Source: Eubacteriales bacterium (GTDB lineage: Bacteria; Bacillota; Clostridia; Oscillospirales; JAAYXM01). Taken from it: a stretch of 64,000 bases of DNA. Below are positions 7,820 through 48,180 of this stretch, in pieces. Location: contig JAZQFJ010000091.1 of NCBI GenBank assembly GCA_045539475.1, positions 28,003 to 92,002 of the forward strand, read 5' to 3'. The translations under genes were made by a program, and so were the position numbers. The notes below the pieces were generated by a model. That model was not told where the DNA came from. It did not search any database and worked only from the letters and a program-made list of their open reading frames with translations. Each line of letters opens with the position of its first letter. Position 1 is the stretch's first letter.

Positions 7820-7845
7820 ACAATTCGTTGCATTGGCTCTTTTCT
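7801..7845 (+). terminator. intrinsic terminator of the oxidoreductase gene
   Basis: AGAGCCAATG (7801-7810) pairs with CATTGGCTCT (7831-7840), then TTTTCTC. Confidence 0.7.
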
Positions 7846-8391
7846 CTATGTGAGAGGAGCTAACAATATGGGTAAAGGCCACAATGGACAGATATGTTCA
7901 TGTGACAGATGACTCGTTGTTAAAAGCAGAGTAACAGTTTGAAAGCAATACACTTTCATAGTGTTAAAAAAATGGCGAAAAAATGGCGAAGTAAATACAT
8001 AGTAAATGCTCAAAACCCTTGAAAATAAAGGAGATGTAGACAAATATGAAATTAGGTATAGTAAGATAACGAGTATTTTTATAACTCAATGTAAAGCACA
8101 TAAAAGTGCATAGAACCCTTGTGCTACAAGGATTTTTTGAAAATCAATTTTATAAAACATCATATAACTCCATAAAGGTTTATAAAAAAATGGTGTAAAA
8201 ATGGTGTAGTAAAAAATAATGATTTAAAGAAAAAGACCATTTGCAACGTTTAATTAAATAACTTGATGAATCCGATTTTGCACTTGGAGCAAAGTCGGAT
8301 TTTTAATTCATAATAACTTTTAGAAACAAAATTAGATATTTTGATTTGCGCGATTAAAATGAAAATAAGACTTGGTTTATTTTGATTTAGC

Positions 8392-24489: not shown

Positions 24490-25920
24490 ATGCCAGCTAA
24501 GAAACCTACAGTTACTCCTGAAGAAGTGACAACTCCTCAACTTGAGGGAGAAAATGAAGCTAATTTAATAGACCGTAGTCAGAATTCCGAAGTGGCAACA
24601 TCGTTACCCCAGACCGAAACTGAAATCGTATCTGATGAAGCCACCATCATGAATGCGCTTAACTCCAATAATGAGACTGTATCTGAAGACGTGCCCATTG
24701 TCCAGACCGAACCAAACGAAGAAAACCCTTCAGCCGCCGGCTTTGAAGACGCCATGAATTCAGGAGAAAACAATGCATCTCCTCAGACTGATGCAGAAAC
24801 TCTGGAAAATCTCGCTCCAGAGCCCCCTGCTGCCGAAGAGGCGACAGAAACTCACGATGAGAACCAGACCGAACCTGAAAAGCCAAAGCGAACCCGAAGG
24901 CGGAAAGCGGATCCTGAAGATTCACAAAATCAGTCTGATACAGCGCCTGGTTCTGATAAGAATGCCAACCCGGACGGTGTCGAGATTGCTGATAAGCCTA
25001 AGCTTAGAATCAGTCTGCCAAAGCGCTCGGATATTTTATCAATTGATGACGAGCTGGGTGTCGTCACCGATGCAGATAAAGCAAAGACGGAGCTGCTCGA
25101 CCTGCTCGAATCCTACCGCGGCAAAAAACATCTGTCCGGGAAAATTCAGGGCATTGAAAATCCGACCGGGGAGCCTTCAAAATCCCTTGCAGTCCTTGCT
25201 TACGGTGAGTATAAGGTTATCATTCCTCTGCACGAAGCTGTTGAACCGCCGGATGATTTGAAAGGTCAGCCGCTTGATTATGCACTTAATTATATGCTGA
25301 ACAAACGGCTTGGCGCGGAAGTGGATTATATTGTAAAGGGTATTGATGCAAAAACAAAGATTGTAGTGGGCAGCCGTGTGGAAGCGATGCGGAATAAGCG
25401 CAAGAGCTATTACTTTGGCACAGACCGGGATGGGAACTACCTGCTTTATTCCGATATATGTGCTGAAGTCAGGGTTGTATCCGTAGTACGTTCGGGAATA
25501 TTCGTTGATCTGTTCGGACTTGAGGTGTTCATCCCGTTGCGGGAACTCAGTTATCAGCGGTTAATGGATGCAGAAGGATATTTTGCACCCGGACAAAGAG
25601 CACTCGTGAAAATCCTTGAGATCGACAGGTCAGACCGAAAACATATCCGCGTTAAAGCCTCAGTAAAGCAGGCGGGCGAGAACCCGTATGAAAAGGCACT
25701 ACGTAAGTACACTATAGGGAACCGATATGTCGGTACGGTCAGTCTGGTGGATGTGAACGGGGTATTCGTTTCCCTTGACGGTGGCATTGATTGTTTGTGT
25801 AATTACCCAAAGCGCGGCCGCCCGCCAAAGGGTGCAAGAGTTACCATAAGAGTTCTGGGCATCAACTATAACACCAATCGTATGTGGGGTGCAATCACGC
25901 ACATTGCAGCGGCAAGATAG
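24490..25920 (+). CDS. S1 RNA-binding-domain protein with an acidic disordered N-terminus
   Basis: S1-like OB segments, e.g. ICAEVRVVSVVRSGIFVDLFGLEVFIPLRELS and GNRYVGTVSLVDVNGVFVSLDGGIDCLC. The N-terminal ~170 aa are rich in E/P/T/N/D. Confidence 0.7.
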   Translation: MPAKKPTVTPEEVTTPQLEGENEANLIDRSQNSEVATSLPQTETEIVSDEATIMNALNSNNETVSEDVPIVQTEPNEENPSAAGFEDAMNSGENNASPQTDAETLENLAPEPPAAEEATETHDENQTEPEKPKRTRRRKADPEDSQNQSDTAPGSDKNANPDGVEIADKPKLRISLPKRSDILSIDDELGVVTDADKAKTELLDLLESYRGKKHLSGKIQGIENPTGEPSKSLAVLAYGEYKVIIPLHEAVEPPDDLKGQPLDYALNYMLNKRLGAEVDYIVKGIDAKTKIVVGSRVEAMRNKRKSYYFGTDRDGNYLLYSDICAEVRVVSVVRSGIFVDLFGLEVFIPLRELSYQRLMDAEGYFAPGQRALVKILEIDRSDRKHIRVKASVKQAGENPYEKALRKYTIGNRYVGTVSLVDVNGVFVSLDGGIDCLCNYPKRGRPPKGARVTIRVLGINYNTNRMWGAITHIAAAR

Positions 25921-26402: not shown

Positions 26403-26588
26403 ATGAAAAGAGATGTCTCTGGGCAGAAATGTCCCTCGTGTGAAACGGGAAGGCAAATGCTTTTTCTTGATCCGCGAGAGCTTTTCTGCCCGTATATTAG
26501 TAATCACAGAGGACATTCATGCGCAATGTATGTCCCGATACAAGCCAATTCAATTTCTGAAATTTACAAGGAGGAATTTGTCAAATGA
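26403..26588 (+). CDS. small Cys-rich (zinc-ribbon-like) protein
   Basis: 61 aa with CPSC...C..., RBS AAAGGAG upstream, and a stop that overlaps the start of the giant gene (ATGA). Confidence 0.45.
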   Translation: MKRDVSGQKCPSCETGRQMLFLDPRELFCPYISNHRGHSCAMYVPIQANSISEIYKEEFVK

Positions 26589-29500
26589 AGACCAAATCAA
26601 AATTAAGATCATTCTTGTCAGCATTACTTGCGCTGGCTATGCTTCTCAGCTCATTCCCGATGATAACTTATGCAGCTCAGTCCAATGAGTATGTAGACCC
26701 TGCAGATATGTGGCTCTCATCCAATAACAGGACCAATGAGCTCGATGTAAATTCAACAACGACGTATGAAACCCAGTATTGTGCTATATGTGATAAGGAA
26801 ACAACGGTGCTTACATACAGAGTGCCCGAATACACACGTTCGGGTGAAACGGCTCTTAACCGAGATGTAAGGTACTCGGATGGCACAAAGATTGACGGAA
26901 GAGGACAAGGAAATCTCGACAGCGGAACCCCGGGCGTTGATGCATATTTTACGGGGTATCATTGGACGAAGGTTGTTTGCCAGAACTGCGGAACGATCAA
27001 CTCGGGAAGCAATCAACAGTCATATGGATTCAATAACAACGTCTATTCGTTGCATAGCTGTGATAATAACTTTTTCCTGCAGTTTGATAACACAACCCAC
27101 GAGCATTACAATGAGGAGTACCACCTTACAACGCTCAAACGTGGCGAATACTGTAAATTCTGCAAAGGTACATATGCAAGAGCAACGCAAGGACTCCAAG
27201 AGCATAGCTTTGTTGAAAATATCGACGGACAGGTCGGAAACAACAGATTTTATATTGCAGAAATCTGTAGTGATTGTGGGTATGAAACAAGTGAATATGT
27301 AACTGCAAAGTCTGTTGTAACTTCCTATTACGGTGTTGAAGACGGAGAAGCACATACTCTCGCTGTAAGCGATTTGTCAGATAGCGGAGTTCGCACTTCC
27401 ATCCGCTACGGAACATCTGCTGACAACTGCACGAAGACATCTGCACCGAATTATACTCAGGCGGGATATTACACGGTTTATTATGAAATAGACTATTCCT
27501 ACGCCGGAGAGGTTATGACAGAAAACGGTGTATCGTATGTATGGCTTGTAGCCGAAGATGAAGATAGCAATGGAACTATAGTAGTTCTTCCGCAAACTCA
27601 CGAGCACGAGTTTCATTATCTTGAAACAATAAAGCCGAGCTGTGATGAGCTTGGATATGACAGATTCCAGTGTAACGGTTGCGGACAGCTTGAGAAGCGA
27701 AACTATACGCCGTCACTCGGTCATGATTATGATGATATCGTTATAAGAGAAGCAACCTGCAAACAGGGCGGTCTTGTGTTAACACTCTGTGCAGATTGCG
27801 GTGACTTCTATCAAACGACAACTGCAACGGGCGCTCATTCATACAAGTCTGTAAACCATACCCCGACTTGCCGTAACGTAGGATACACAGAGTACACATG
27901 CGAAGTGTGTGGCGATAATTACATTAATAACATTCAGCCGCTTATCTCTCACTCATATGAGAGAATTACAAAAGAGCCTACATGTATAGATCGTGGCTAT
28001 ACAACATCCACCTGTACGATGTGCGGATATAATTATGTTGATGACTATGTCGATGAGTTGGGACACAGTTGGGATGAGGGGCATACAGTAACCGCGTCCA
28101 CCTGCACAGGCGAAGGTATTATGGAGTACAACTGCCAAAACACAGGTTGTACTGAAAAGATGATTCAGGCAATGGATGCTGCCGGACACACTCCGGGGGA
28201 CGAAGCAACCTGCACAGAACCTCAGAAGTGTATTGAGTGTGAAACAGTGCTTGAACTTCCGAAAGGACATGCCTATGACAGTGAAGTTACAGCCCCTACT
28301 TGCACTGCAATGGGATACACGACCAATTCCTGCATAAGCTGCGGGGACACGTACTTGTCAGATTATGTGGATCCTACTCCTCACGAATACGAGGAAACAG
28401 TTATTCCGGCGACCTGTACGAGCCTGGGGTATTCAGTATTCAGGTGCGCAGATTGCGATGATGAGTACAAAGCGGACTACACCGATATGCTGGAGCACAC
28501 CTACGTTGAAGACGTTACGGCTCCGACCTGTACCAGTCTGGGATATTCGACATTTACCTGTTCCGGGTGCGATGCAAGCTACGTGGGCAACTATGTGGAT
28601 AAGACACCTCATAATTATAACAAAGAGGTAATCCCACCAACGTGTGTGGAGCACGGACATTCCGTGTACGAGTGTCCTGATTGCGGAGCAAGCTACATTG
28701 ATGAGATTGTGGAGAGCACCGAGCATACATATGAGGAAACAAAGATTCCTGCAACATGTACATCACTCGGCTACAGTATTTTCAAATGCACCGACTGTGA
28801 TGATGAGTATGTAAGCAACTATGTGGATAAGCTTCCTCATGACTATGAAGCAACTGTTATTCCTGCAACATGTACCGGTCTTGGACATTCCGAGTATCAG
28901 TGCAAGAACTGCCCGGATAATTATAAGAGCGACTACACAGAGCCGACGGGACATAATCCGTCAGACTGGATTATAGATACCCCTGCAACCATCGAGCACG
29001 CAGGAGCTAAGCATATCGAATGCTTAACCTGCGGAATAGCACTTCAGGAATCGGAGATTCCGCAGCTCATTGATGTGGATCGCAGCGATGAGGACGGCGA
29101 AGCTTTAGTTGGCGCATACAGCATCATCCTGACAGACTCAAAGAACATCCCTGTTTTTGACAGCGAGATTACAATTGATGTCAATGACAATGTCACCATC
29201 AGACTTCCGGAGAAAAGGCTACTGGACTATAAGGACCAGACAACTATCACTGTTTTCAATACCGAAACGCAGGAAGCTGTAACGGGACTTCGGATCTTTG
29301 TTTATGATGCAGCGAATAATGCAGCAACAGGTGCAACAGATGCAAACGGACAGCTTAAGGTTCCGAATAATCAGTCCTCTACAGGAGATGATAACGGAAC
29401 CATCGGCAAAGACGAAAATGAAGAAAAGCTTACGTTTGTTGTCCGTGTATCCGACAAGGAAAATGTGGTTATTCCGGATTGTGATGTTTACATCGGCGAG

Positions 29501-31948
29501 AGCAATAATATTGTAGTGGATCTCCCCGAAGGCATAAAGCCATCTGTTGAAGCTCCCGTAATTGTAACTGTTGAGGATCAGTATGGTAATCCGCAGAAGA
29601 ATGTTACCATCATTGCACTCGGCGACAATGATTATATAGAAAAAGGCAAAACCGACATCTATGGCCGTGTCACACTCCCGATGGTAAACGAAGGTTTTAC
29701 AAATGATGAAGGGCACGTAACTGTCGATAACATCAATGTTATTGTCAACGACGAAATCGGTCTGATAGCAGATGCGTTTGTTAAACACAACGAGGATGGA
29801 ACCGTTTCGGTTACGCTTCCTGAAGGAAAAGGCATCAGCCATTCAAATCGCATTACGGTAACAGTACTCGACTCTGAAGCTCTGGCAGTTAAAGATAAGT
29901 CAATTACTGTAACTGATCTTGAAGAAAAGACTTATACCGACATAACGGATGAATCCGGCAAAATCGTTGTCCCGCCGCTTTCGGAAGATTACTCGGATGA
30001 AACCGGTATGGCAGTTGTAAATGGATACACTGTGTTTATCGCCGACGAAATAAATCCGATTGTTGATGCCTTTATTGAAATTGAGAACGGTGCTATCAGT
30101 ATCGCGCTTCCTGAAGGTGCAAATATTGATTATAACAACCGTATCACGGCGACCGTTACAAAGGATGACGAGCCTGTCAAGGATATCCCTGTTAGCTTTA
30201 CCGATACAACAGGTAAGACCGAAATCAATCTGACAGACGAGAATGGTAAGGCAGTTGTCCCGCCTGCAAACATTGATTTCACTGATGTGAATGGATTTGC
30301 GCAGGTTGACGGATATTCCGTAACAGTTAACGATGAAAAGGGCTTTGTGGAAAAGGCGTTTATAACTCACACGGAAGACGATAAGCTTGATATAAAGCTT
30401 CCGGATAATCTCTTGATCGAGTACGGCAACAGAATAACCGTGCAGGTGCTTGATAAAGAAACGCAGGCGCCGGTGAAAGACCTCGTGGTCATTGTAAACG
30501 AAGTCATTGTTCCGACAGAGTCCGGCGAAGAAACACCTGTGGGCAAGACTATGACGGATACCACTGATTCCAAGGGTATCGCGGTATTCCCACCGCTTTC
30601 TGAAGACATCACTGACAACGAAGGTGGTTCCAACGTAACCGACAAGACCGAAGAAGAGGACAAGGATACTGACGGAGACGGAACTCCCGACACTCCGGGT
30701 GAAACGATCGAACAACAGTATATCGTATCGGTAAAGGATACCAAGGGTATCATCCCTGATGCGTTCGTGAAAATCAGTAACGGCAAGATCAGTGTTACAT
30801 TACCTGAAGGAAAGACTTTGACAACAAGTAATCAGACAACAGTCACGGTTCTTGATAAAGAGTCAAAGCCGATATCGGGTGTAAGCGTTACAATCACTGA
30901 CAGCAGCAACACCTCCAAATCCGGCACCACCAATGCAAACGGTCAGGTGACACTTCCCGTCAAGTCCTCCGGTGGAGGTGGCGGTGGCGGCGGTAGCAGC
31001 TCCTCTGGCGGAGGTGGTGGCTACTACAGTGGCGGCGGAATCGGAGGCTCATACTCATCTACAACCGTGAATGTTGTCGATAAGGACGGCAAGACCGTAT
31101 CTGTTTCCAAGTCCACAACCACGACCCAAGCTACACTCACACTTCCTGCAGGCAAAAATCTGCTCAAGGATGATAACTATTATAAAATTACGGTAACTTC
31201 TGGTTCTCAGGCAAAACCTGGTTATACTGTTGTACTGAAAGACAGAAGCGGTAACGAAGTAAGCGGAGTCACGGATGCTTCCGGTAAGCTAACGCTCCCG
31301 GGTGTTAAGCATACAGCATATATCTTCGGATATCCGGATGGAACCTTCAGACCGAATGGTAACATGAGAAGAAGCGAAGCTGCGGCAATCTTTGCGCGTC
31401 TTATTGCGGAAGCGAAGAATGAAAGTATTAGCGGCAGAGCTTCTTTCAAGGACGTTGATTCTGATGAGTGGTATGCATCTTATGTTGCATATCTTGAAAA
31501 ATATGACGTAATACGCGGATACTCCGATAATACATTCCGCGCAGACAACCAGGTCACACGCGCGGAGTTTGTCGCTATGAGCGTCCGATACTACGATTTA
31601 TTCGGCGATTTACCATCTGTTTCAAACACCAATAGATACAGTGATGTGTCTTCAAGCTACTGGGCGGTTAAAGAAATCTCCGTCGCAAAAGAAATAGGTT
31701 GGCTCAACGGATATGCTGACGGCACATTCCGCGGTGATAACAAAATTACGCGCGCAGAAGCCGTGACCGTAATTAACCATGCAACGGAACGTAATCCTGA
31801 TAAAGAGCATATCAACGAAAACTTCACCAAGCTCAACAGATTTACGGATATAACCGATAGCAGCGCATGGTTTTTCTATAATGTGATGGAGTCTTGTAAC
31901 ACACATCTCGGCGCGGCATCAAGCGACGGCGAGAACTGGATAGACTAA
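26585..31948 (+). CDS. 1787-aa secreted surface protein: Cys/His mini-domain repeats, Ig-like repeats, Gly linker, three C-terminal SLH domains
   Basis: Signal peptide MKTKSKLRSFLSALLALAMLLSSFPMITYA. About 13 repeats of H.Y..(5-7)..TC...GY....C..C...Y, then ~95-aa repeats with TDE.GK.VVPP. SLH motifs: FGYPDGTFRPNGNMRRSEAA, IRGYSDNTFRADNQVTRAEF, LNGYADGTFRGDNKITRAEA. Confidence 0.85.
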   Translation: MKTKSKLRSFLSALLALAMLLSSFPMITYAAQSNEYVDPADMWLSSNNRTNELDVNSTTTYETQYCAICDKETTVLTYRVPEYTRSGETALNRDVRYSDGTKIDGRGQGNLDSGTPGVDAYFTGYHWTKVVCQNCGTINSGSNQQSYGFNNNVYSLHSCDNNFFLQFDNTTHEHYNEEYHLTTLKRGEYCKFCKGTYARATQGLQEHSFVENIDGQVGNNRFYIAEICSDCGYETSEYVTAKSVVTSYYGVEDGEAHTLAVSDLSDSGVRTSIRYGTSADNCTKTSAPNYTQAGYYTVYYEIDYSYAGEVMTENGVSYVWLVAEDEDSNGTIVVLPQTHEHEFHYLETIKPSCDELGYDRFQCNGCGQLEKRNYTPSLGHDYDDIVIREATCKQGGLVLTLCADCGDFYQTTTATGAHSYKSVNHTPTCRNVGYTEYTCEVCGDNYINNIQPLISHSYERITKEPTCIDRGYTTSTCTMCGYNYVDDYVDELGHSWDEGHTVTASTCTGEGIMEYNCQNTGCTEKMIQAMDAAGHTPGDEATCTEPQKCIECETVLELPKGHAYDSEVTAPTCTAMGYTTNSCISCGDTYLSDYVDPTPHEYEETVIPATCTSLGYSVFRCADCDDEYKADYTDMLEHTYVEDVTAPTCTSLGYSTFTCSGCDASYVGNYVDKTPHNYNKEVIPPTCVEHGHSVYECPDCGASYIDEIVESTEHTYEETKIPATCTSLGYSIFKCTDCDDEYVSNYVDKLPHDYEATVIPATCTGLGHSEYQCKNCPDNYKSDYTEPTGHNPSDWIIDTPATIEHAGAKHIECLTCGIALQESEIPQLIDVDRSDEDGEALVGAYSIILTDSKNIPVFDSEITIDVNDNVTIRLPEKRLLDYKDQTTITVFNTETQEAVTGLRIFVYDAANNAATGATDANGQLKVPNNQSSTGDDNGTIGKDENEEKLTFVVRVSDKENVVIPDCDVYIGESNNIVVDLPEGIKPSVEAPVIVTVEDQYGNPQKNVTIIALGDNDYIEKGKTDIYGRVTLPMVNEGFTNDEGHVTVDNINVIVNDEIGLIADAFVKHNEDGTVSVTLPEGKGISHSNRITVTVLDSEALAVKDKSITVTDLEEKTYTDITDESGKIVVPPLSEDYSDETGMAVVNGYTVFIADEINPIVDAFIEIENGAISIALPEGANIDYNNRITATVTKDDEPVKDIPVSFTDTTGKTEINLTDENGKAVVPPANIDFTDVNGFAQVDGYSVTVNDEKGFVEKAFITHTEDDKLDIKLPDNLLIEYGNRITVQVLDKETQAPVKDLVVIVNEVIVPTESGEETPVGKTMTDTTDSKGIAVFPPLSEDITDNEGGSNVTDKTEEEDKDTDGDGTPDTPGETIEQQYIVSVKDTKGIIPDAFVKISNGKISVTLPEGKTLTTSNQTTVTVLDKESKPISGVSVTITDSSNTSKSGTTNANGQVTLPVKSSGGGGGGGGSSSSGGGGGYYSGGGIGGSYSSTTVNVVDKDGKTVSVSKSTTTTQATLTLPAGKNLLKDDNYYKITVTSGSQAKPGYTVVLKDRSGNEVSGVTDASGKLTLPGVKHTAYIFGYPDGTFRPNGNMRRSEAAAIFARLIAEAKNESISGRASFKDVDSDEWYASYVAYLEKYDVIRGYSDNTFRADNQVTRAEFVAMSVRYYDLFGDLPSVSNTNRYSDVSSSYWAVKEISVAKEIGWLNGYADGTFRGDNKITRAEAVTVINHATERNPDKEHINENFTKLNRFTDITDSSAWFFYNVMESCNTHLGAASSDGENWID

Positions 31949-32517: not shown

Positions 32518-32608
32518 TAAAAATTGCTCTCCAGACTGACTTCAAAACCGAAAAAGCAAAACTTTGAGAAAAGTTATGTTGAATATTCACAAATCTTTAC
32601 CAATAGGC

Positions 32609-32637
32609 TTGACGAAAGGGTTGCATTTTGATATACT
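32609..32637 (+). promoter_or_regulatory. sigma-A type promoter with extended -10
   Basis: TTGACG (32609-32614), 17-nt spacer ending in TGA, TATACT (32632-32637). Confidence 0.6.
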
Positions 32638-32644
32638 ATAACCG

Positions 32645-32895
32645 TGACAGGAGCTTGCATCCAGGCTCTCGGTACATCGGACGAATTCCCGGTGTTAGAC
32701 TTGTTGATGATTGATACAAGGAACCGTTACGGATTTAGCGCACAGAGCGATCCATAATGATGCAAGCCAAATTGAATATGGGGCCGGAGGGCTGCTTAAT
32801 ACTTTACAGAGTCAATCGTCGGGATGAGACAACAAAATTCCCGACACGTTGGCTCTGTATTGCCATTTTTGCAGACTTTCCGGCCTTTTTCTTTA
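32645..32895 (+). ncRNA. ~250-nt structured 5' leader (two multi-stem domains, the second closed by a terminator-like stem plus U-run)
   Basis: Pairings read by eye: GCTTGCATC 32653-61 with GATGCAAGC 32759-67; GGCCGGA 32782-88 with TCCGGCC 32879-85, then TTTTT; CAGAGTC 32807-13 with GGCTCTG 32851-57; GTCGGGA 32818-24 with TCCCGAC 32839-45. Confidence 0.5.
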
Positions 32896-32913
32896 CAATC
32901 GGAGGTGACTTTA

Positions 32914-33384
32914 ATGAGTAAAAAGACTAAAAAAAGAAAGGGATTGAACAAAGCTCCCATGCGGTGCCCGTATTGCGGCAGCAGTGTGATTCTGCGAAGT
33001 GCTGACGGTATTTATCAGGACAACAGCAGAAATACTATGCTTTATGTATGTTCACACTATCCGGAGTGTGATGCTTACGTAAGAACACATTCCGGGACCA
33101 GGGTTCCGGTCGGTAGTATGGCAAACTCCGAGCTCAGGGCACTGCGCAGGAGCGCTCATCATTATTTCGACCAGCTATATAAGTCCGGGTTCATGTCAAA
33201 GGACGATGCATATTACTGGCTTTCGAGTATTATTGATGCCCCGCTGTCTCAGGCGCATATTGGATACCTGAGCGAATATTACTGTAAGCAGGTCATTGAG
33301 CAGAGTAAAGCATATCTTGAGCAGTGTCGCAGTAAAAGGAAGAAATCCGGGCTATATAAGGCAGGGGGTGCGCTTGCATCATGA
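32914..33384 (+). CDS. zinc-ribbon protein, DUF3268-like
   Basis: ATG 32914 lies 7 nt after GGAGGTG. Motifs CPYCGSS...CSHYPECDAYV, then GSMANSELRALRRSAHHYFDQLY and AHIGYLSEYYCKQVIE, matching my recollection of the DUF3268 pattern. Confidence 0.55.
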   Translation: MSKKTKKRKGLNKAPMRCPYCGSSVILRSADGIYQDNSRNTMLYVCSHYPECDAYVRTHSGTRVPVGSMANSELRALRRSAHHYFDQLYKSGFMSKDDAYYWLSSIIDAPLSQAHIGYLSEYYCKQVIEQSKAYLEQCRSKRKKSGLYKAGGALAS

Positions 33385-33926
33385 AACTCACTCTGCAGCA
33401 ACAAAAATTAGTCGAAGATAATCTCGGTTTGGTAGGCAAAGTAATTCAGCAAAAGGTCCGCGGCTTACATAACATTCCTCATTATACATATGACGACCTG
33501 TTCCAGATCGGTTGTATCGGGCTCAGCAAAGCTGCAGCGACGGATAAGGGTGGGACATTTTCGACATATGCATACAGACTGATCTGGAATGAAATATGCG
33601 ACACTCTCGTGTATGCATCAAAAAAGTATTCAAGGGAGGATGCGTATGAGGATGTTGGACTTGTTTTCAAGGAAGAGACTAAAGATTTTGGCGATACAGC
33701 AAAGATAGAGCTATATGATGTTATATCGGAGGCGAAGCGTAATGTTTCGCCATCGGTTGCACTTGGCATTGATGCTTTGCTCCTTATGAACGATGGATAT
33801 ACCGCTAAAGACATCGGCTCTTTATTCGGTAAGACAACAAATACGATAACGGCACTTATATCTAAGGCAAAAAAGCATCTTCGCTCTATTCCCGAGCTTC
33901 GGGCTCTTAACCGCGAATCGGTATGA
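33381..33926 (+). CDS. sigma-70 family RNA polymerase sigma factor (small, group 4-like)
   Basis: Region 2-like DDLFQIGCIGLSKAA...FSTYAYRLIWNEI and region 4 HTH YTAKDIGSLFGKTTNTITALISKAKKHL. ATGA overlap with the upstream gene. Confidence 0.8.
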   Translation: MKLTLQQQKLVEDNLGLVGKVIQQKVRGLHNIPHYTYDDLFQIGCIGLSKAAATDKGGTFSTYAYRLIWNEICDTLVYASKKYSREDAYEDVGLVFKEETKDFGDTAKIELYDVISEAKRNVSPSVALGIDALLLMNDGYTAKDIGSLFGKTTNTITALISKAKKHLRSIPELRALNRESV

Positions 33927-34297
33927 AGAAAAAACTGTTTATTATCCCGGTACTATTCTTTGTGTTGGTAATGGTTTTGTTCCGCTGTGTTATTTACATC
34001 GGATATGTTCCGTCAGGATCAATGGAGCCGACTATCCCGGCAGGAAGTAAGGTGATAGGTATTCGAATAATCCCGGAGCTTGAGAAAGGTGATATTATTG
34101 TTTTCGGGTATGGAGATACATATATGATCAAGCGCATTGCCGCGAGCCCCGGGGACAAAGTAGGAGGAGGTATTGTACCGGAAGATTGCTATTACGTTCT
34201 TGGTGACAATTCAGCAAATTCCTATGATTCGAGATACTGGGAGAATCCATTTGTGCATCGCAGCAGAATCAAGGCGATAATTATTTGCAAGGTATAA
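33923..34297 (+). CDS. signal peptidase I (S26 family, short form)
   Basis: Catalytic Ser box SGSMEPT, Lys box MIKRIAASPGD, box E LGDNSANSYDSRYW. ATGA overlap with the sigma gene. Confidence 0.85.
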   Translation: MKKKLFIIPVLFFVLVMVLFRCVIYIGYVPSGSMEPTIPAGSKVIGIRIIPELEKGDIIVFGYGDTYMIKRIAASPGDKVGGGIVPEDCYYVLGDNSANSYDSRYWENPFVHRSRIKAIIICKV

Positions 34298-34305
34298 AAC
34301 AAAGG

Positions 34306-34348
34306 CCGTCTGTAGAATTGATATCTACAGACGGCTGATACTTTTTTG
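34306..34348. terminator. bidirectional terminator between convergent genes
   Basis: GCCGTCTGTAGA (34306-34317) pairs with TCTACAGACGGC (34325-34336); T-runs on both sides. Confidence 0.7.
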
Positions 34349-38595: not shown

Positions 38596-39069
38596 ATGTG
38601 CATCTGCAAATCAATCAAAAAGGCGGTGATTCATTTGTTTGATGATCTGCCTGAGACAGACTATGTCCTGTTTCTTATTCCTACACTGGCAGAGATTATC
38701 TGTGAAGATGTAACGGACAAAGTTCGTGAACTTCATTTCTCTGCATACAGACAGCTTCAGGCACATCTGAACTTCTATAAGGGACGAGGATATTGCGAGA
38801 AGCTACTGTGTAGAATTGCGAAAAAGAAAGGACAACTGATTCTCAAAACCACATCAAAGGCTAAAATGGAAAAGCTTATGAAGCCTCAAGCTCCACATTA
38901 TAACGGTGCAGAGTTCATACCGGACGAATACAACGTTCCGGAAGAAGAACTTATATGCTGGAGCGAAACTTCCTTTTTAGGACCTCTGAATCACATTGCT
39001 TACAAGAGGTACATGAAGGTGTTCGGTGAAGTTTTTCCGGATGAAGCCAAAAAATTATTACAACCATGA
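38596..39069 (+). CDS. hypothetical protein
   Basis: 157-aa ORF ending in an ATGA overlap with ligA. Its ATG is 12-13 nt from GGAGG, and an out-of-frame ATG at 38592 is better placed. Confidence 0.45.
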   Translation: MCICKSIKKAVIHLFDDLPETDYVLFLIPTLAEIICEDVTDKVRELHFSAYRQLQAHLNFYKGRGYCEKLLCRIAKKKGQLILKTTSKAKMEKLMKPQAPHYNGAEFIPDEYNVPEEELICWSETSFLGPLNHIAYKRYMKVFGEVFPDEAKKLLQP

Positions 39070-41069
39070 AAGGAGACTGCACAATAATGAGTGCGAATAA
39101 GTATCAGACAAATCTTGAAAGGATGAAAGAACTCATCCATATTCTTAACGAGGCAGATATTGCTTACTATCGGGATGATAATCCTATTATGACCGATTTT
39201 GACTACGACAGGCTCTTTGATGAGCTGAGCGGTCTTGAGCGGGACACAAAGCTTATTCTGTCCAATTCACCCACCCAGAAGGTGTCGGGAGAAATACTTG
39301 AGGAGCTTACCGAAGTAAGACACACAAAGCCGATGCTTTCTGCAGGAAAAACAAAATCTGTTGCGGATCTTGCGAAGTTTGCAGGAGATAAGGATGTTAT
39401 CTTGTCGTGGAAGCTTGACGGTCTTACTCTTGTACTTCGGTATGAGAACGGCGAGCTTGTCCAAGCGATTACACGCGGTCGTGAAGGCATAATCGGAGAA
39501 GATGTTACGCATACGGCGAAAGTATTCCTCAATATACCGCTGACTGTTCCGGTAAAGGAATCGTTTGAAGTCAGAGGCGAAGGCGTGATATCATGGCAAA
39601 ACTTTGATGAGATCAATTCCGGTCTGCCGGAACCATATGCAAATCCGAGAGGCTTGGCATCCGGAAGCACCAGGAAACTTAATGCAAATGAAGCAAAGAA
39701 AAGATGTTTGGAGTTTTATGCCTTTGAGTTGATTTCTGATAAAATCAGTCATTATGATAAAGAGGAACAGCTCCACTTCCTTGCTTCAAACGGCTTTGAT
39801 GTTGTCCCGCATAAAAGGATTTACGGACCTTCTACACTTGAGGAGATTCAGCATGAAGTTGACAGATTCAATCCCAAGGAATACAAATACGCAGTGGATG
39901 GACTCATTATGGAATATGCTGATATCGCTTATGGTAAGAGCCTTGGAGCAACAGGTCATCATGAGCGCCGACTGATAGCCCTTAAATGGGAAGACGAGCT
40001 TTATGATACTAAGTTTCTTGGAGTCGAGCTTGCTACTACCAGAACAGGTATGGTAAGCCTTACTGCCATTCTGGAACCGGTTACTATCGACGGTACGGTT
40101 GTCACCAGGGCATACCTGCATAATTTTGACATTTTCAACAGTTTCCAGTTCGGAATCGGTGATACGGTCAAGGTTTATAAAGCAAATATGATTATTCCGC
40201 AGATTCAGGAGAATGTTACGCAGAGTAATACATATCAGCTGCCTATGACTTGTCCGTGCTGCGGCGAACCTTTAACAGTGAAGGCTACATCCGGCGGAAC
40301 GAGCTTTTTGTATTGCAATAATTCCGAGTGTCCTGCAAGACTGGTCCAGAAGTTCGTGCACTTCTGCGAGAAAACACGTATGAACATTGAGGGACTTTCG
40401 GAAAGGACCCTGGAAAAGTTTATCGGACGTGGATGGATACGCAATTTTGGAGACCTGTATGAGCTTGAAAAACATAAGGATGAAATTGTAAATACAGAAG
40501 GCTTTGGTGAAAAATCATATCAGCGATTGCAGGCATCTATCGAAAAGAGCCGAAAATGTACGCTCGATAAGTTTATTGCCGGACTTGGTATTCCTATGGT
40601 TGGAAGACATGCAGGAAAAATCATCAACCAGTATTTTGACGGAGACTGGAATGCTTTTGAGCAGGCTATCATTGATGGCTATGACTTCACAGCACTTCCT
40701 GATTTCGGTCAGACTATGCGTGCCAACATATACACATGGTATGCAGATGAGGAGGAAGCAAAGCTTTGGCGTCCGCTACTTGATAAAATCAAATTTATAA
40801 AGGAGAATCATACTATGAACGCTACTGAGAAAACAGTATTTTACGGAAAAACCATCGTTGCTACAGGAAAGCTTGAGAACTATACCCGTGATGAAATTCA
40901 GGCGAAGATCATTTCGCTGGGTGCAACCCCGGCTTCATCTGTAACAAAAAAGACAGACTATGTAATCGTCGGTGAAAAGGCTGGGAACAAGCTTCAAAAA
41001 GCGTTAAATCTTGGCATCCGAACACTGACAGAAGAAGAGTTTGAAAACTTGCTGGTATCCGATAAGTAA
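39066..41069 (+). CDS. ligA: NAD-dependent DNA ligase LigA (element-borne copy)
   Basis: Ia domain DIAYYRDDNPIMTDFDYDRLFDEL, adenylation motif SWKLDGLTL (KxDG), C4 zinc finger CPCCGEPL...CNNSECPA, C-terminal BRCT-like KTIVATGKLENYTRDEIQAKIISLGA. Alternative start ATG 39087. Confidence 0.9.
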   Translation: MKGDCTIMSANKYQTNLERMKELIHILNEADIAYYRDDNPIMTDFDYDRLFDELSGLERDTKLILSNSPTQKVSGEILEELTEVRHTKPMLSAGKTKSVADLAKFAGDKDVILSWKLDGLTLVLRYENGELVQAITRGREGIIGEDVTHTAKVFLNIPLTVPVKESFEVRGEGVISWQNFDEINSGLPEPYANPRGLASGSTRKLNANEAKKRCLEFYAFELISDKISHYDKEEQLHFLASNGFDVVPHKRIYGPSTLEEIQHEVDRFNPKEYKYAVDGLIMEYADIAYGKSLGATGHHERRLIALKWEDELYDTKFLGVELATTRTGMVSLTAILEPVTIDGTVVTRAYLHNFDIFNSFQFGIGDTVKVYKANMIIPQIQENVTQSNTYQLPMTCPCCGEPLTVKATSGGTSFLYCNNSECPARLVQKFVHFCEKTRMNIEGLSERTLEKFIGRGWIRNFGDLYELEKHKDEIVNTEGFGEKSYQRLQASIEKSRKCTLDKFIAGLGIPMVGRHAGKIINQYFDGDWNAFEQAIIDGYDFTALPDFGQTMRANIYTWYADEEEAKLWRPLLDKIKFIKENHTMNATEKTVFYGKTIVATGKLENYTRDEIQAKIISLGATPASSVTKKTDYVIVGEKAGNKLQKALNLGIRTLTEEEFENLLVSDK

Positions 41070-45518: not shown

Positions 45519-46258
45519 AAGTACCCGTAGGGAAGGGCACTATTGTAAGAGAGACTTTGCTCATCATAATAGCATTGATGCTGTTTGTGTTTATGTGCAG
45601 GCTGTGGCCGATACTGCTCTTTATGATTGTCGCTTTGTTTGTTGCAATGATTATTCTGCTATTTAAAGCATCGTCAGAGCCGAAAACGGTTGAGCCGAAG
45701 CCCATACCGTCAACAGTAAGACAACCGGTACGGATACCTTCGCAAAATGATGTATACGCACTTGCGTATTCTGTCATACTCAGACGGATTACCGAGCTTG
45801 TCCATGAAAAATATCCTCAGGCGCGTTGGATTTGGGAAGCGTCAAATGCACGCAACCTTATAGAAAACGGGGAAGATGTATACATTCTCTTGAATCGTGC
45901 CGGAGGATATGGCAGGGCTATGGTTAAAATAGTCAACCTGAGTGTCGTGGATGTCGTGTTTGGTGTTCCGGAAATTGACACATTCCCCGATGCTGCGGAT
46001 ACAGACGCTGAAGACGCGGATGAGGGTGTGCCGGAAAACTATGAGCTGATAGCCTTTGAATGGGTTCAGGCACACATTATTGATCTGAACAACAGATGCA
46101 ATGAAGCTATCGGTGAAGGCAAAAATATGGTCATCATTACGGAGGCTGAGCTTCCTGTACGGGAGAGTTGGATTGATGTATGTAAACAGCTTCAGAAGTC
46201 CGAAATCGAAAACCTTGAATGTATTCCGGAGGGAATACAGATTAATCTCACGCATTGA
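45515..46258 (+). CDS. hypothetical membrane protein
   Basis: ATGA overlap with the previous gene; N-terminal TM pair LLIIIALMLFVFMCRLWPILLFMIVALFVAMIILLF. Confidence 0.5.
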   Translation: MKVPVGKGTIVRETLLIIIALMLFVFMCRLWPILLFMIVALFVAMIILLFKASSEPKTVEPKPIPSTVRQPVRIPSQNDVYALAYSVILRRITELVHEKYPQARWIWEASNARNLIENGEDVYILLNRAGGYGRAMVKIVNLSVVDVVFGVPEIDTFPDAADTDAEDADEGVPENYELIAFEWVQAHIIDLNNRCNEAIGEGKNMVIITEAELPVRESWIDVCKQLQKSEIENLECIPEGIQINLTH

Positions 46259-46278
46259 AATGCAGAAAGGAATTTACA

Positions 46279-48153
46279 ATGAGTAATGTCACTAATCTTT
46301 TTAATTTCGGTCGCGCTCTGCCACATCCATTTGATAGCGTGACAAATAAGAAAGTCAAGGTATCGTCAAAGTATGGAGACGGAACCACATCAACATTGTG
46401 TTCGACGGTTATAAAAGCCGTGAATGCCGCTTGTGCTTGCATGAACGGTACAGGACAGGGTGCGTTTGGAACGCTTGACAGCAAGGGTATTGCTGAATAT
46501 AAGTCATCAAACAGCGCTGATGAATATCATTTGGTTGTGTATGACAGCACGGTAGGAAATCTTCTCGCTTGCGTATATGATAAAAGCACGGAAGTGATTG
46601 AAACATATACAGCTCATTCCTCTGCAAGAGACGGCGCTGCTATTGTTATGGCCATGCTCCCGGCTCTTATGGTGGATGATGAGTTCAAGGAGAATTTTGA
46701 TACATATTATGATCAGTTTCTTGCAGGATTTCTGGATATGGCTGTTACCACGGAGGCGATGGCATATATGTGTGACAACGCATATCGCCGCATCAAGGAC
46801 GATGGCTGTGCAGCGCATGTCCCTGTAGAGATTGACAAATCGGGTAATATCATGCACGTGTCGAGAAGTCATATTGACTCAGGTAATTTTACTCCGCATG
46901 CAGTTATTGGCGGAGAGTTTACTATTTTCGGTTCCACCGGACCTGCAACGATCAAAAAAGCCAGTACCTTCATTGAGCACAGTGACTTTGTAAGAAAATA
47001 CCCATTGAATTCATCAAGAGCACTTACCCCCGAAGAAGAGCTGATGGTGCCCGAGCTTCCTGAATGGTATATCATACCTCCGGAGGTCGTAGACATTTGC
47101 AAGCACGCACAGCACACCACAGGAAAGTCAATGCAGATGCGAAACTTTCTTTTACGTGGTCCTGCCGGTACAGGTAAGACAATGGGAGCAAAGGCTGTTG
47201 CAGCAGGACTCGGGCTTCCGTATAAGAAGTATACCTGCTCTGCTGGAACGGAAATATATGATTTTATCGGTCAGATCTTTCCGGATGCCGAAGGAGGCTC
47301 AACAGGAGATATACAGCTTGACCGTGAACGGCAACAGCTAAAGAGCATGGGTGGAATCAACTATACAAACGTTGCGAAGCTTATGAACCTGCCCGATCTG
47401 GACGATATGGATTACGATCCCCAAGGCGTGTATAAAGCGCTCACAGGGAAGGATAAGCCAAACGCATCCACTCAGGACTGTATGCTTATCGTGCTCAATA
47501 AAGTGACAGATAAGATAAAAGAGCTTTCCAGACGCGATGAAGCAAGTGCGTCACAAGGGCAGAGTTTCACTTATGTCGAAACCGATTTTCTGACAGCGCT
47601 CAAGAACGGATATGTTGTTGAGGTGCAAGAACCCACCACAATTATGCAACCGGGTGTATTGGTCGGACTCAACTCATTGCTTGAGCAGACCGGATCCATC
47701 ACGCTCCCGACCGGTGAGGTTATCGAACGCCATCCTGATGCTGTGGTTATCGTTACTACTAATATAAGCTATGAAGGCTGCCGCGGTATGAACCAGTCTG
47801 TCATTGACAGAATGAGTCTGGTGTGCGATGTCGAGGCTCCGGCACCTGAAGTAATGGTCCAGAGAGCGATGAGTGTCACCGGCGCAACTGATGAATACCA
47901 AGTAAGCCAAATGGTTCAGGTGGTAAACGATATTGCGGAATACTGCAGAACTCATGGCGTTACCGATGGTTCCTACGGCATGAGAAGCCTGATCGACTGG
48001 ATTGAAAGCAGTGCGATCACGAACAATGTCTATGAATCGGCATTATACACCATTATAAGCAAAGCCACTACGGACGAACTGGAACGTGAGGCTTTGATAA
48101 CATCAGTGCTTGAGCCTATTTTTGCTCCACCGAGGAAAAGAGCTTCAGCATAA
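46279..48153 (+). CDS. AAA+ ATPase (MoxR / CbbQ / CobS-like, AAA_5) with a ~290-aa unknown N-terminal domain
   Basis: Walker A LLRGPAGTGKTM and Walker B-like GYVVEVQEP, plus ITLPTGEVIERHPDAVVIVTTN. ATG 46279 follows AAAGGAA. Confidence 0.75.
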   Translation: MSNVTNLFNFGRALPHPFDSVTNKKVKVSSKYGDGTTSTLCSTVIKAVNAACACMNGTGQGAFGTLDSKGIAEYKSSNSADEYHLVVYDSTVGNLLACVYDKSTEVIETYTAHSSARDGAAIVMAMLPALMVDDEFKENFDTYYDQFLAGFLDMAVTTEAMAYMCDNAYRRIKDDGCAAHVPVEIDKSGNIMHVSRSHIDSGNFTPHAVIGGEFTIFGSTGPATIKKASTFIEHSDFVRKYPLNSSRALTPEEELMVPELPEWYIIPPEVVDICKHAQHTTGKSMQMRNFLLRGPAGTGKTMGAKAVAAGLGLPYKKYTCSAGTEIYDFIGQIFPDAEGGSTGDIQLDRERQQLKSMGGINYTNVAKLMNLPDLDDMDYDPQGVYKALTGKDKPNASTQDCMLIVLNKVTDKIKELSRRDEASASQGQSFTYVETDFLTALKNGYVVEVQEPTTIMQPGVLVGLNSLLEQTGSITLPTGEVIERHPDAVVIVTTNISYEGCRGMNQSVIDRMSLVCDVEAPAPEVMVQRAMSVTGATDEYQVSQMVQVVNDIAEYCRTHGVTDGSYGMRSLIDWIESSAITNNVYESALYTIISKATTDELEREALITSVLEPIFAPPRKRASA

Positions 48154-48180
48154 CTATTATGAGAGGAGGTTAACCCTGTA

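What the first reader, a model, noticed from the sequence alone, without database searches (positions are those of the whole stretch)
32609..32913. ~250-nt multi-stem leader RNA upstream of the zinc-ribbon / sigma / signal-peptidase operon
A strong promoter (TTGACG-17-TGATATACT) is followed by two structured domains. Domain 1 is closed by a perfect 9-bp helix (32653-61 / 32759-67) and encloses at least three short hairpins. Domain 2 is closed by GGCCGGA/TCCGGCC (32782-88 / 32879-85) followed by TTTTT. It encloses nested helices CAGAGTC/GGCTCTG and GTCGGGA/TCCCGAC, and ends 15 nt before the RBS. An aptamer-like domain followed by a terminator-containing domain is the layout of a riboswitch or protein-dependent attenuator. 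The first gene looks DUF3268-like. As far as I recall, comparative-genomics surveys have proposed a candidate cis-regulatory RNA class named after DUF3268 genes in Clostridia, with unknown ligand and function. I cannot confirm that this sequence belongs to it.
Basis: partly seen in the sequence, partly recalled or inferred. Interest (0 to 1): 0.65.

Follow-up and report, generated by a model that had tools for sequence, protein, structure and literature searches.

The report
Known DUF3268 leader RNA plus terminator
This is a textbook copy of an already catalogued but functionally unexplained bacterial RNA (Rfam "DUF3268 RNA"), sitting with an unusually long, sequence-frozen terminator in front of a zinc-ribbon/sigma-factor/signal-peptidase operon of a conjugative element from gut Clostridia.

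Summary
Domain 1 (32646-32768) is a full-length, high-scoring member of Rfam RF02966, DUF3268 RNA (103 bits; threshold 65). This family is known from Weinberg et al. 2017, and its k-junction has been crystallised (PDB 8ITS), but no function is assigned. The first gene is a true DUF3268 protein.

Beyond the Rfam model, the whole leader is conserved in 46 of 50 related loci: a sigma-A-type promoter, the motif, a 28-38 bp unbranched hairpin with a U-run (domain 2), then the RBS 12-16 nt later. The base of that terminator is almost invariant (about 0.9 identity, against 0.44 at third codon positions). It even survives in a variant leader that lacks the k-junction.

I found no conserved antiterminator helix and no leader peptide. 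My best reading is a cis-acting attenuator that terminates by default. Read-through would need a trans-acting factor, possibly the co-encoded DUF3268 protein or RNA polymerase. It gates a sigma-factor operon in a conjugative element.

Identity is near certain; the mechanism is inference. Novelty: already known family. Interest is moderate, because the context makes an orphan RNA testable.

The parts
32609..32637 (+). Sigma-A-type promoter: TTGACG, 17-nt spacer, extended -10 TG-n-TATACT. The likely transcription start is about 32644-32647.
   Evidence: Across 39 leaders the -35 is 0.93 identical and the -10 is 0.84, while the spacer is only 0.43. That pattern is typical of a real promoter.
32646..32768 (+). 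P1 is 32653-61/32759-67. It encloses P2 with a three-way k-junction (arms P2a and P2b) and the P3 hairpin.
   Evidence: 103.3 bits, full model coverage; covariation in P1, P2, P2a, P2b and P3.
32769..32779 (+). Conserved linker AAATTGAATAT. Its TTG may add 3 bp to P1 by pairing with CAG at 32648-50. Its A/T-rich part lies directly 5' of the terminator stem.
   Evidence: alignment pairs 50-52/183-185, with G-U to G-C changes only. Mean pairwise identity 0.74.
32780..32887 (+). Domain 2: one long unbranched hairpin of 36 bp. It has an outer stem GGCCGGAGGGCUGC/GCAGACUUUCCGGCC, a middle stem and an inner stem with a 14-nt loop.
   Evidence: -57 kcal/mol, z = -8.65; 28-38 bp in all 39 leaders; the G-U pairs fit the + strand RNA only.
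32886..32894 (+). U-tract (TTTTTCTTT) directly after the stem, which completes an intrinsic terminator.
   Evidence: T-run conserved, 0.85 identity.
32901..32916 (+). RBS GGAGG (32901-05) and start codon ATG (32914) of the DUF3268 gene. The gap from U-tract to RBS is too short to hold a promoter.
   Evidence: The RBS is 0.92 identical. The CGGAGG sequence is complementary to the terminator's 3' arm UUUCCG.
32914..33384 (+). DUF3268 zinc-ribbon protein gene (156 aa).
   Evidence: PF11672, E = 1e-51. AlphaFold model: Zn-ribbon plus helical domain, pLDDT 73.
33381..33926 (+). Sigma-70 family sigma factor (181 aa; regions 2 and 4). Its start overlaps the DUF3268 stop codon (ATGA).
   Evidence: Present in 48/50 loci.
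33923..34297 (+). Signal peptidase I (S26 family, 124 aa).
   Evidence: Present in 45/50 loci.
34304..34336 (.). Bidirectional terminator that closes the three-gene operon.
   Evidence: 13-bp stem, detected on both strands.

Best explanation
The region is the 5' leader of a three-gene regulatory operon (DUF3268 zinc-ribbon protein, sigma factor, signal peptidase) carried by a conjugative element of gut Clostridia.

A strong housekeeping-type promoter starts transcription a few bases before a DUF3268 RNA (RF02966). This is a three-way-junction RNA that contains a k-junction. About 12 nt later comes an exceptionally long hairpin (about 36 bp) with a U-tract. This is an intrinsic terminator, and it sits only about 10-15 nt before the RBS.

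No promoter fits between the terminator and the gene, so the operon can only be transcribed by read-through. The leader is therefore a cis-acting transcription attenuator (inferred from the anatomy).

The two domains fold independently and no competing antiterminator helix is encoded. Termination is therefore the default state. Read-through most likely needs a trans-acting factor that recognises the conserved junction of domain 1 and/or the sequence-invariant base of the terminator. Candidates are the co-inherited DUF3268 protein (feedback), another protein of the element, or RNA polymerase itself (inference).

The same hairpin is also the first strong terminator met by the upstream transfer-gene array, so it insulates the sigma-factor operon from that transcription.
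For: Identity: RF02966 at 103 bits, full length; PF11672 gene downstream.

Conservation of the whole leader: 46/50 gene-anchored loci have a full-length leader homolog. 35 of 40 loci scanned reach the Rfam threshold. All 3 RNA-anchored hits also carry the terminator and the gene.

Structure: 97.2% of cells paired, 26 compensatory pairs, 0/500 shuffles reach the observed values.

Terminator: a single hairpin of 28-38 bp plus a U-run in 39/39 leaders. G-U pairs show that it acts as RNA on the + strand. The RBS follows within 12-16 nt.

Sequence-level selection on the terminator base: arm identity 0.905/0.866, against 0.44 at third codon positions and 0.43 in the promoter spacer. The 7 core pairs never change on both sides. 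The base and the UCAGGCUC junction are retained in the L045/L046 variant leader, which has lost the k-junction and gets no Rfam hit even at E<=10.

No antiterminator: the best partner of the terminator's 5' arm is no better than in shuffles (z from -1.4 to +1.3), and only 5-6 bp alternative runs exist.

No leader peptide.

Context: T4SS/T4CP conjugation genes lie upstream on the same strand. There is no + strand terminator between 20640 and the leader.

Precedents: attenuators and antitermination commonly gate conjugation modules in Gram-positive bacteria (PMC13401043, PMC8191782, PMC11658703).
Against: There are no expression data, so neither termination nor read-through has been shown. The factor is unidentified.

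The DUF3268 protein has no recognisable RNA-binding fold. Foldseek gives no hit with E<1, and there is no PDB sequence homolog.

DUF3268 proteins occur widely in phages and plasmids without this RNA. A Vescimonas plasmid has the DUF3268-sigma pair without the leader. The protein therefore does not intrinsically need the RNA.

Failing to find an antiterminator by thermodynamic and compatibility scans does not exclude a tertiary or kinetic switch.

Rfam files the family as 'Gene; sRNA'.
Confidence: 0.5

Rival explanations
1. Small-molecule or ion riboswitch. Domain 1 is an aptamer whose ligand-dependent folding changes the efficiency of the downstream terminator.
For: A complex junction RNA with nearly invariant junction nucleotides (J1/2 0.94 and GGAACCGUUACGGAU 0.93 identity). 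A terminator follows immediately. The k-junction is the architectural element also used by TPP riboswitches, and it can substitute for one (PMC10573300).
Against: There is no conserved mutually exclusive helix between the aptamer and the terminator. The arms radiating from the k-junction are the least conserved parts (0.59 and 0.51), and they are dispensable in the L045/L046 variant. The RNA is tied to a single gene family on a mobile element rather than to a set of metabolically related genes.
Confidence: 0.15
2. Stand-alone small RNA. The roughly 245-nt transcript that ends at the long hairpin is the functional product and acts in trans, for example on a protein such as the sigma factor or RNA polymerase. 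The hairpin is simply its terminator and stabiliser, and also the end-of-operon insulator for the upstream transfer genes. The downstream operon is fed only by leakage.
For: The RNA has its own strong, conserved promoter. The terminator is very stable. Rfam types the family as sRNA. The hairpin is the first strong terminator after the upstream array. In pLS20, stems of 15 bp or more make terminators resistant to processive antitermination and mark operon ends (PMC10325885).
Against: The motif-terminator-RBS-gene spacing is fixed, and the RNA never occurs away from a DUF3268 gene in the 49 instances seen. Trans-acting sRNAs are not usually locked to one downstream gene in one orientation. The operon has no other visible promoter.
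Confidence: 0.2
3. Cis-acting RNA that modifies RNA polymerase into a terminator-resistant form, in the manner of put, EAR, canT or conAn2. Polymerases that have transcribed domain 1 would pass the terminator.
For: The position matches those elements: immediately after a promoter, immediately before a terminator, and with no alternative pairing needed. Such RNAs are documented in conjugative elements (PMC11658703; PMC8191782). The L046 variant carries a second small hairpin with a U-run before the long terminator. That favours a mechanism that does not depend on the terminator's sequence.
Against: If the RNA acted alone, the terminator would be constitutively bypassed and pointless. In pLS20, long stems defeat RNA-mediated antitermination, and here the stem is more than twice that length. 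The operon has only three genes and ends at an ordinary 13-bp terminator. There is no ConAn1 (PF17362) or NusG/LoaP homolog among the ORFs scanned.
Confidence: 0.1
4. DNA-level element. The long, conserved inverted repeat would be an oriT-like or operator site rather than an RNA structure.
For: The arms of the inverted repeat are nearly invariant in sequence, and it lies inside a conjugative element.
Against: G-U pairs at four positions of the outer stem (6-10 sequences each) would be C-A mismatches on the other strand or in duplex-symmetric sites. The interior is replaced by unrelated sequences that keep only the hairpin shape. The U-tract and RBS placement is that of a terminator.
Confidence: 0.03

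Closest known systems
DUF3268 RNA motif (Rfam RF02966; Weinberg et al. 2017, PMC5737381; k-junction crystal structure PDB 8ITS, Li et al. 2023, PMC10573300)
   Same: Domain 1 matches the full model at 103 bits. It has the same helices, the same conserved junction nucleotides, the same position upstream of a DUF3268 gene and the same taxonomic range (Clostridia).
   Different: Nothing differs in domain 1. The Rfam model stops at P1. It does not include the conserved promoter, the linker or the long sequence-invariant terminator. The held literature assigns no function ('no function has been ascribed').
Zipper-type attenuator cATT of the pLS20 conjugation operon (PMC13401043)
   Same: It is a leader of a conjugation-associated operon that gates the first regulatory gene. 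It has a long imperfect central hairpin flanked by two segments that are complementary to each other, and each flank can form its own small hairpin. Here those are AGCC-GGAA-GGCU and AG(A)CC-UUCC-GGCU followed by U's. The trigger is unknown in both systems.
   Different: In pLS20 the fully zipped hairpin is the antiterminator. Here the fully zipped hairpin ends directly at the U-tract, so it is itself the terminator. There is also no sequence similarity, a different host clade, and here an additional structured domain lies upstream.
TerR, the long-stem terminator of pLS20 that resists antitermination (PMC10325885)
   Same: An intrinsic terminator with a stem far longer than usual, located at the end of a conjugation gene array.
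   Different: TerR has a 15-bp stem, while this hairpin has 28-38 bp with a sequence-invariant base. Resistance to antitermination has not been tested here. This hairpin also sits inside a leader.
Cis-acting processive antiterminator RNAs: Tn916 canT, pLS20 conAn2 with ConAn1, HK022 put, B. subtilis EAR
   Same: A structured RNA transcribed just before terminators in a mobile element. Pairing of an RNA with a small co-encoded protein is known from conAn.
   Different: There is no homology. ConAn1 is Pfam PF17362, not DUF3268. Those systems serve long multi-terminator operons, whereas this operon has three genes.
TPP riboswitch (for the k-junction architecture only)
   Same: It contains a k-junction that sets two helical arms side by side. 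[quoted passage not shown]
   Different: The arms here carry no conserved internal loops (identity 0.5-0.6) and are absent from a natural variant. There is no Rfam TPP hit and no link to thiamine genes.

Membership tests
Rfam RF02966 DUF3268 RNA | Covariance-model score at or above the curated gathering score (65.3 bits), over the full model | tested here: met
   103.3 bits, E = 1.5e-20, model positions 1-121 of 121, not truncated.
Rfam RF02966 DUF3268 RNA | Helices P1, P2, P2a, P2b and P3 maintained by compensatory changes among relatives | tested here: met
   Helices 2-7 each have 1-5 pairs with changes on both sides and are 94-100% paired. Slid controls are at most 39% paired.
Rfam RF02966 DUF3268 RNA | Located in the potential 5' UTR of a gene encoding a DUF3268 (PF11672) domain, in Clostridia | tested here: met
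   PF11672 with E = 1e-51 for the ORF starting 146 nt after the motif. The arrangement is the same in 35/40 scanned loci from Lachnospiraceae, Oscillospiraceae and Ruminococcaceae.
Rfam RF02966 DUF3268 RNA | k-junction: a three-way junction with tandem sheared G-A pairs | tested here: inconclusive
   The consensus AGA and GGAA nucleotides flanking P2b are present here and nearly invariant in the alignment. The three-dimensional fold cannot be tested with these tools, and the crystallised sequence is only in a supplement that is not held.
Metabolite riboswitch with a terminator expression platform | Conserved structured aptamer followed by an intrinsic terminator | tested here: met
Metabolite riboswitch with a terminator expression platform | Mutually exclusive antiterminator (or anti-antiterminator) pairing that links the aptamer to the terminator | tested here: not met
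   Only 5-6 bp alternative runs were found. The best duplex of the terminator's 5' arm with the upstream RNA is not better than in dinucleotide shuffles (z from -1.4 to +1.3).
Metabolite riboswitch with a terminator expression platform | Specific binding of a small ligand | not testable with these tools
   This needs in-line probing, ITC or SHAPE.
Metabolite riboswitch with a terminator expression platform | Association with several gene families related to one metabolite | tested here: not met
   Every instance precedes the same DUF3268 gene. The sigma factor follows in 48/50 loci and the signal peptidase in 45/50.
conAn bipartite processive antitermination system | ConAn1 protein (Pfam PF17362, pXO2-34) encoded next to the RNA component | tested here: not met
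   The adjacent protein is PF11672. No PF17362 hit was found in any of the 46 ORFs scanned. Not every small ORF of the element was scanned.
conAn bipartite processive antitermination system | Located at the start of a long conjugation operon that contains many terminators | tested here: not met
   The leader heads a three-gene operon that is closed by a terminator at 34304-34336. The transfer genes lie upstream of it.
Zipper-type attenuator (cATT) | A long central hairpin flanked by complementary segments, each of which can form its own small hairpin | tested here: met
   The arms AGCCGGA(A/G)GGCU and AG(A)CCUUCCGGCU are each self-complementary. This is seen as a local hairpin in truncated folds, and the arms are invariant.
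Zipper-type attenuator (cATT) | The zipped form is the antiterminator and prevents the terminator hairpin from forming | tested here: not met
   Here the zipped form ends directly at the U-tract, so it is itself the terminator.
Intrinsic (Rho-independent) terminator | G+C-rich stem immediately followed by a U-tract on the transcribed strand | tested here: met
   GGCCGGA...UCCGGCC followed by UUUUU. Conserved in 39/39 leaders. Termination activity itself has not been tested.
Long-stem terminator resistant to antitermination (TerR type) | Stem much longer than the usual 9 +/- 2 bp (TerR: 15 bp) | tested here: met
   28-38 bp, median 36. The reference values come from PMC10325885.
Long-stem terminator resistant to antitermination (TerR type) | Resists a processive antitermination system of the same element | not testable with these tools
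   No antitermination system has been identified in this element. This needs reporter assays.

The most novel reading that the evidence does not exclude
The DUF3268 RNA and the sequence-frozen, roughly 36-bp terminator may together form one regulatory device of a kind not yet described. It would be an attenuator without any antiterminator helix. In this reading a folded junction RNA, alone or with the DUF3268 zinc-ribbon protein, captures or melts the terminator's self-complementary 5' arm (the AGCC-GGAA-GGCU mini-hairpin), or acts on the polymerase. That would switch on a sigma factor encoded by the element, and with it conjugative transfer in gut Clostridia.
Probability: 0.15. Interest if true: 0.7.

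Novelty: already known. Interest (0 to 1): 0.4.

Why it matters
DUF3268 RNA is an orphan. [quoted passage not shown]

The work here does not discover the RNA, but it makes the question experimentally approachable. The RNA belongs to a fixed leader that controls an operon of a zinc-ribbon protein, a sigma factor and a signal peptidase, inside conjugative elements that are common in human and animal gut Clostridia. The leader consists of a promoter, the motif, a very long terminator with an invariant base, and the RBS.

If the leader controls the element's sigma factor, it would be a checkpoint for horizontal gene transfer in the gut microbiota. The invariant terminator base and the natural variant without a k-junction indicate which nucleotides to mutate first.

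Tried and rejected
1. Classic antiterminator. I searched all column pairs and all stacked compatible runs in the 39-sequence alignment. I also searched for the best duplex partner of each terminator arm. The recurrent partner was junction CCAGGCUYUCGG, which resembles the terminator's 3' arm. It is not better than in dinucleotide shuffles, so I rejected it as evidence.

2. Leader peptide, or the 54-codon ORF at 32757-32921. It is not conserved. Nine leaders have no ATG ORF of 10 or more codons, and frames differ in the others.

3. Internal promoter between the terminator and the gene. None was found, and the gap is only 12-16 nt.

4. Membership in conAn. Rejected, because ConAn1 is PF17362.

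5. Function of the DUF3268 protein from structure. The AlphaFold model has pLDDT 73. Foldseek against the PDB gives nothing with E<1. phmmer against the PDB gives nothing significant. NCBIfam has no family for it.

6. DNA similarity of the operon to annotated plasmids and phages. No match.

7. RNA-anchored census with the 15-mer GGAACCGTTACGGAT. Of 189 loci, 186 were chance hits and only 3 were true instances. None of the true instances was in viral contigs, so this census is too small to say much.

8. More examples of the L045/L046 variant leader. L045 and L046 are identical, and no close protein relatives were among the 120 homologs listed. I ran no further search on this.

9. Weinberg 2017 supplement. 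It is not held, and the main text does not discuss this motif.

Full report
OBSERVATION.
- The promoter is TTGACG, a 17-nt spacer, then TG-n-TATACT (32609-32637). It scores 10/12 with an extended -10.
- GCTTGCATC (32653-61) is the exact reverse complement of GATGCAAGC (32759-67).
- GGCCGGA (32782-88) pairs with TCCGGCC (32879-85) and is followed by TTTTT.
- The nested helices CAGAGTC/GGCTCTG (one G-U pair) and GTCGGGA/TCCCGAC are present.
- The RBS GGAGG lies 15 nt after the stem, and the ATG is at 32914.
- Domain 2 alone folds at -57 kcal/mol with z = -8.65. The whole leader has z = -5.67.

IDENTITY. A scan of the whole window against Rfam 15 gives a single hit above threshold: RF02966, DUF3268 RNA, at 32646-32768 (+). 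The score is 103.3 bits (gathering score 65.3), E = 1.5e-20, over model positions 1-121 of 121. The ORF that follows (32914-33384) is PF11672 DUF3268 with E = 1e-51. The next two ORFs are a sigma-70 family factor (regions 2 and 4) and a type I signal peptidase. The sigma gene overlaps the DUF3268 stop codon (ATGA). A bidirectional terminator closes the operon at 34304-34336.

The family comes from Weinberg et al. 2017 (PMC5737381). Its main text does not discuss this motif, and the supplement is not held. Lilley and colleagues recognised a k-junction in it and solved that part (PDB 8ITS). [quoted passage not shown] A full-text search finds no other paper on the RNA.

THE LEADER IS LARGER THAN THE RFAM MOTIF.
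- I collected 50 loci encoding relatives of the DUF3268 protein from GTDB species genomes. They come from Lachnospiraceae, Oscillospiraceae, Ruminococcaceae and unclassified Clostridia. L004 encodes an identical protein.
- nhmmer with window 32600-32925 finds a full-length leader homolog in 46 of the 50.
- Rfam confirms RF02966 in 35 of the 40 loci scanned.
- The exceptions are one contig truncated inside the leader (L039), two gene fragments (L048, L050), and L045/L046 (discussed below).

In the alignment of 39 non-redundant leaders (A1), the conserved parts run in this order:
- a promoter whose hexamers are conserved (0.93 and 0.84 mean pairwise identity) while its spacer is not (0.43);
- the motif;
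- a linker, TTGAATAT;
- a long hairpin whose outer arms GCCGGAAGGCUGC / GCAG(A)CCUUCCGGC are almost invariant (0.905 and 0.866);
- a U-run;
- the RBS, 12-16 nt later.

STRUCTURE TEST. For the two-domain structure (53 pairs in 9 helices), 97.2% of cells are standard pairs, against 32-39% when partners are slid by 1-3 columns. 26 pairs show changes on both sides, and none of 500 column shuffles reaches any observed measure (RNAalifold). All helices of the Rfam motif covary, and so does the middle helix of domain 2.

The seven core pairs of the terminator base never change on both sides. G-U pairs occur at four outer-stem positions, in 6-10 sequences each. They would be C-A mismatches on the opposite strand, so the hairpin acts as RNA on the + strand.

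DOMAIN 2 IS AN UNUSUAL TERMINATOR. In all 39 leaders it folds as one unbranched hairpin of 28-38 bp (median 36; -35 to -55 kcal/mol) followed by a U-run. This holds although the interior exists in at least five unrelated versions. Length is therefore conserved as a property in its own right. For comparison, B. subtilis terminators average 9 +/- 2 bp, and the 15-bp stem of pLS20 TerR is already called extraordinary (PMC10325885).

The invariance of the base is not due to recent common ancestry. In the same loci, third codon positions of the adjacent gene are 0.44 identical and second positions 0.88.

Each arm is also self-complementary (AGCC-GGAA-GGCU), and it forms a small hairpin in truncated transcripts.

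A NATURAL VARIANT. L045 and L046 come from two species but have identical leaders. They have an intact DUF3268-sigma-peptidase operon and the same promoter. They also keep a P1-like stem, the junction strands UUCAGGCUC and CAAUAGCG, and the same terminator base plus U-run. The k-junction domain and P3, however, are replaced by two simple hairpins, and an extra small hairpin with UUUU is inserted. Rfam gives no DUF3268 hit there even at E<=10. The terminator base and the junction strands are therefore the most persistent parts of the device. This is a single example.

WHAT IT CONTROLS AND WHERE.
- The first 8 kb or so of the window is host DNA (LarB/LarC/LarE-like genes).
- The rest is a large conjugative element. 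It encodes a TrbL/VirB6-like protein, an NlpC/P60 hydrolase, a VirB4-type ATPase, a VirD4/TraG coupling protein and a 1787-aa surface protein. It also encodes an NAD-dependent ligase, a RecD2-type helicase, a YqaJ recombinase, a methylase and an actin-like partition protein.
- The module of a 171-aa membrane protein gene, the leader, DUF3268, sigma factor and signal peptidase is conserved (43, 46, 50, 48 and 45 of 50 loci).
- No convincing + strand terminator lies between 20640 and the leader, and none lies in the 91-nt gap before its promoter. Domain 2 is therefore also the first strong stop for the upstream transfer-gene array.

MECHANISM. What is shown: a conserved promoter, a conserved structured RNA, a conserved terminator-shaped hairpin, and no room or signal for another promoter before the gene.

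What follows from that: the operon is transcribed only by read-through, so the leader is a cis-acting attenuator.

I looked hard for the element that would make it a classical riboswitch or an alternative-structure attenuator, and did not find one.
- The only compatible alternative runs are 5-6 bp.
- The recurrent best partner of the terminator's 5' arm is the junction CCAGGCUYUCGG, which resembles the terminator's 3' arm. It is no better than in shuffled sequence.
- No leader ORF is conserved.

I therefore infer that termination is the default state, and that read-through needs a trans-acting factor that recognises specific sequence. This would also explain why the terminator base cannot drift. 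The candidates are:
- the DUF3268 protein, which is always co-inherited, has a basic N-terminus and a Topo-I-type zinc ribbon, and would give a feedback loop;
- another protein of the element, where the S1-domain protein at 24490-25920 is the only predicted RNA binder;
- RNA polymerase itself.

Evidence against an obligate RNA-protein partnership: DUF3268 proteins are widespread in phages (571 records) and plasmids (78 records) that do not carry this RNA. A Vescimonas plasmid has the DUF3268-sigma pair with neither the motif nor the long terminator. The structure model of the protein (pLDDT 73) has no significant fold match.

COMPARISON WITH KNOWN SYSTEMS. Attenuators and antiterminators at the head of conjugation modules are established in Bacilli.
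- The pLS20 zipper attenuator (PMC13401043) shares the three-segment topology. Its logic is opposite, because there the zipped form is the antiterminator.
- conAn (PMC8191782) pairs an RNA with a small protein, but that protein is PF17362.
- Tn916 canT (PMC11658703) is a cis-acting RNA thought to modify the polymerase.
- TerR shows that long stems resist such modification.

The present leader works like a member of this general class, but it is not a member of any of these families. The only family it belongs to is RF02966.

VERDICT. The feature is an already known RNA family of unknown function, in canonical form. What this analysis adds:
- the extended and conserved leader architecture;
- the invariant, very long terminator;
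- the absence of an antiterminator;
- the variant without a k-junction;
- the setting in a conjugative element, in front of a sigma-factor operon.

These points are inference from sequence. None has been tested experimentally.

Noticed in passing
L045:2715-3000 and L046:2715-3000: A variant leader, identical in two species. It has the same promoter, a P1-like stem, the junction strands UUCAGGCUC and CAAUAGCG, and the same terminator base. The k-junction and P3 are replaced by two simple hairpins, and an extra small hairpin with UUUU is inserted. Rfam gives no hit even at E<=10. It may be a second, minimal form of the DUF3268 leader.
   Followed up: partly
window 32874-32885 and 32900-32905: The terminator's 3' arm (UUUCCG) is complementary to the RBS region CGGAGG in at least 87% of leaders, and the 5' arm CCGGA(A/G)GG resembles the RBS. 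This could be chance purine/pyrimidine complementarity, or it could be a translational layer of control.
   Followed up: partly
window 32644-32650 with 32731-32736: The 5' tail CGUG(A/G)C, which is nearly invariant and lies just at the likely transcription start, can pair with the invariant junction GUUACG (6 bp, compatible in at least 87% of sequences). It could be a pseudoknot, or merely a conserved initial transcribed sequence. There is no covariation to decide between the two.
   Followed up: no
L009:2718-2790: One locus keeps the motif (96 bits) and the terminator but has lost the promoter and the first bases of the leader, which are replaced by unrelated sequence. There the RNA could only be made by read-through from upstream.
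   Followed up: no
L054:12142-13156: A metagenomic instance in which the DUF3268 gene is followed directly by the signal peptidase, with no tblastn match to the sigma factor between them.
   Followed up: no
window 24490-25920: A 476-aa protein with an S1 RNA-binding domain, encoded within the transfer-gene array between the coupling protein and the surface protein. It is the only predicted RNA-binding protein of the element, and so a candidate partner for the leader.
   Followed up: no
window 26585-31948: A 1787-aa secreted protein with many Cys-rich repeats (CxxC pairs), a long repeat region, a Gly/Ser stretch and an SLH-like C-terminus. It is probably the surface adhesin of the conjugative element. 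Only 6 of 50 related loci have a similar C-terminus upstream of the leader.
   Followed up: no
window 6738-6777: A 15-16 bp perfect inverted repeat that contains a TTGACA on each strand, so two divergent promoter-like sites are embedded in one palindrome. It lies between a DUF975 gene and an oxidoreductase gene in the host part of the window, and it looks like an operator.
   Followed up: no
window 1-8000 versus 8400-64000: The left end carries host genes (LarE-like ATP-pyrophosphatase, LarB-like AIR carboxylase, LarC nickel insertion protein). The mobile element seems to begin near the Fic/DOC gene (8454-9587). It also carries an NAD-dependent ligase (39066-41069), an AAA_5/VWA pair (46255-50481) and an actin-like partition protein (62265-63182). 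I did not look for an integrase, a relaxase or the element ends.
   Followed up: no
L240 (NZ_AP023417.1 51824-52895): In Vescimonas fastidiosa plasmid pMM35_02, a distant DUF3268 protein (38% identity) is again followed immediately by a sigma-70 family factor, without the RNA. The DUF3268-sigma pairing is therefore older or wider than the RNA, which hints that the zinc-ribbon protein works with the sigma factor.
   Followed up: partly
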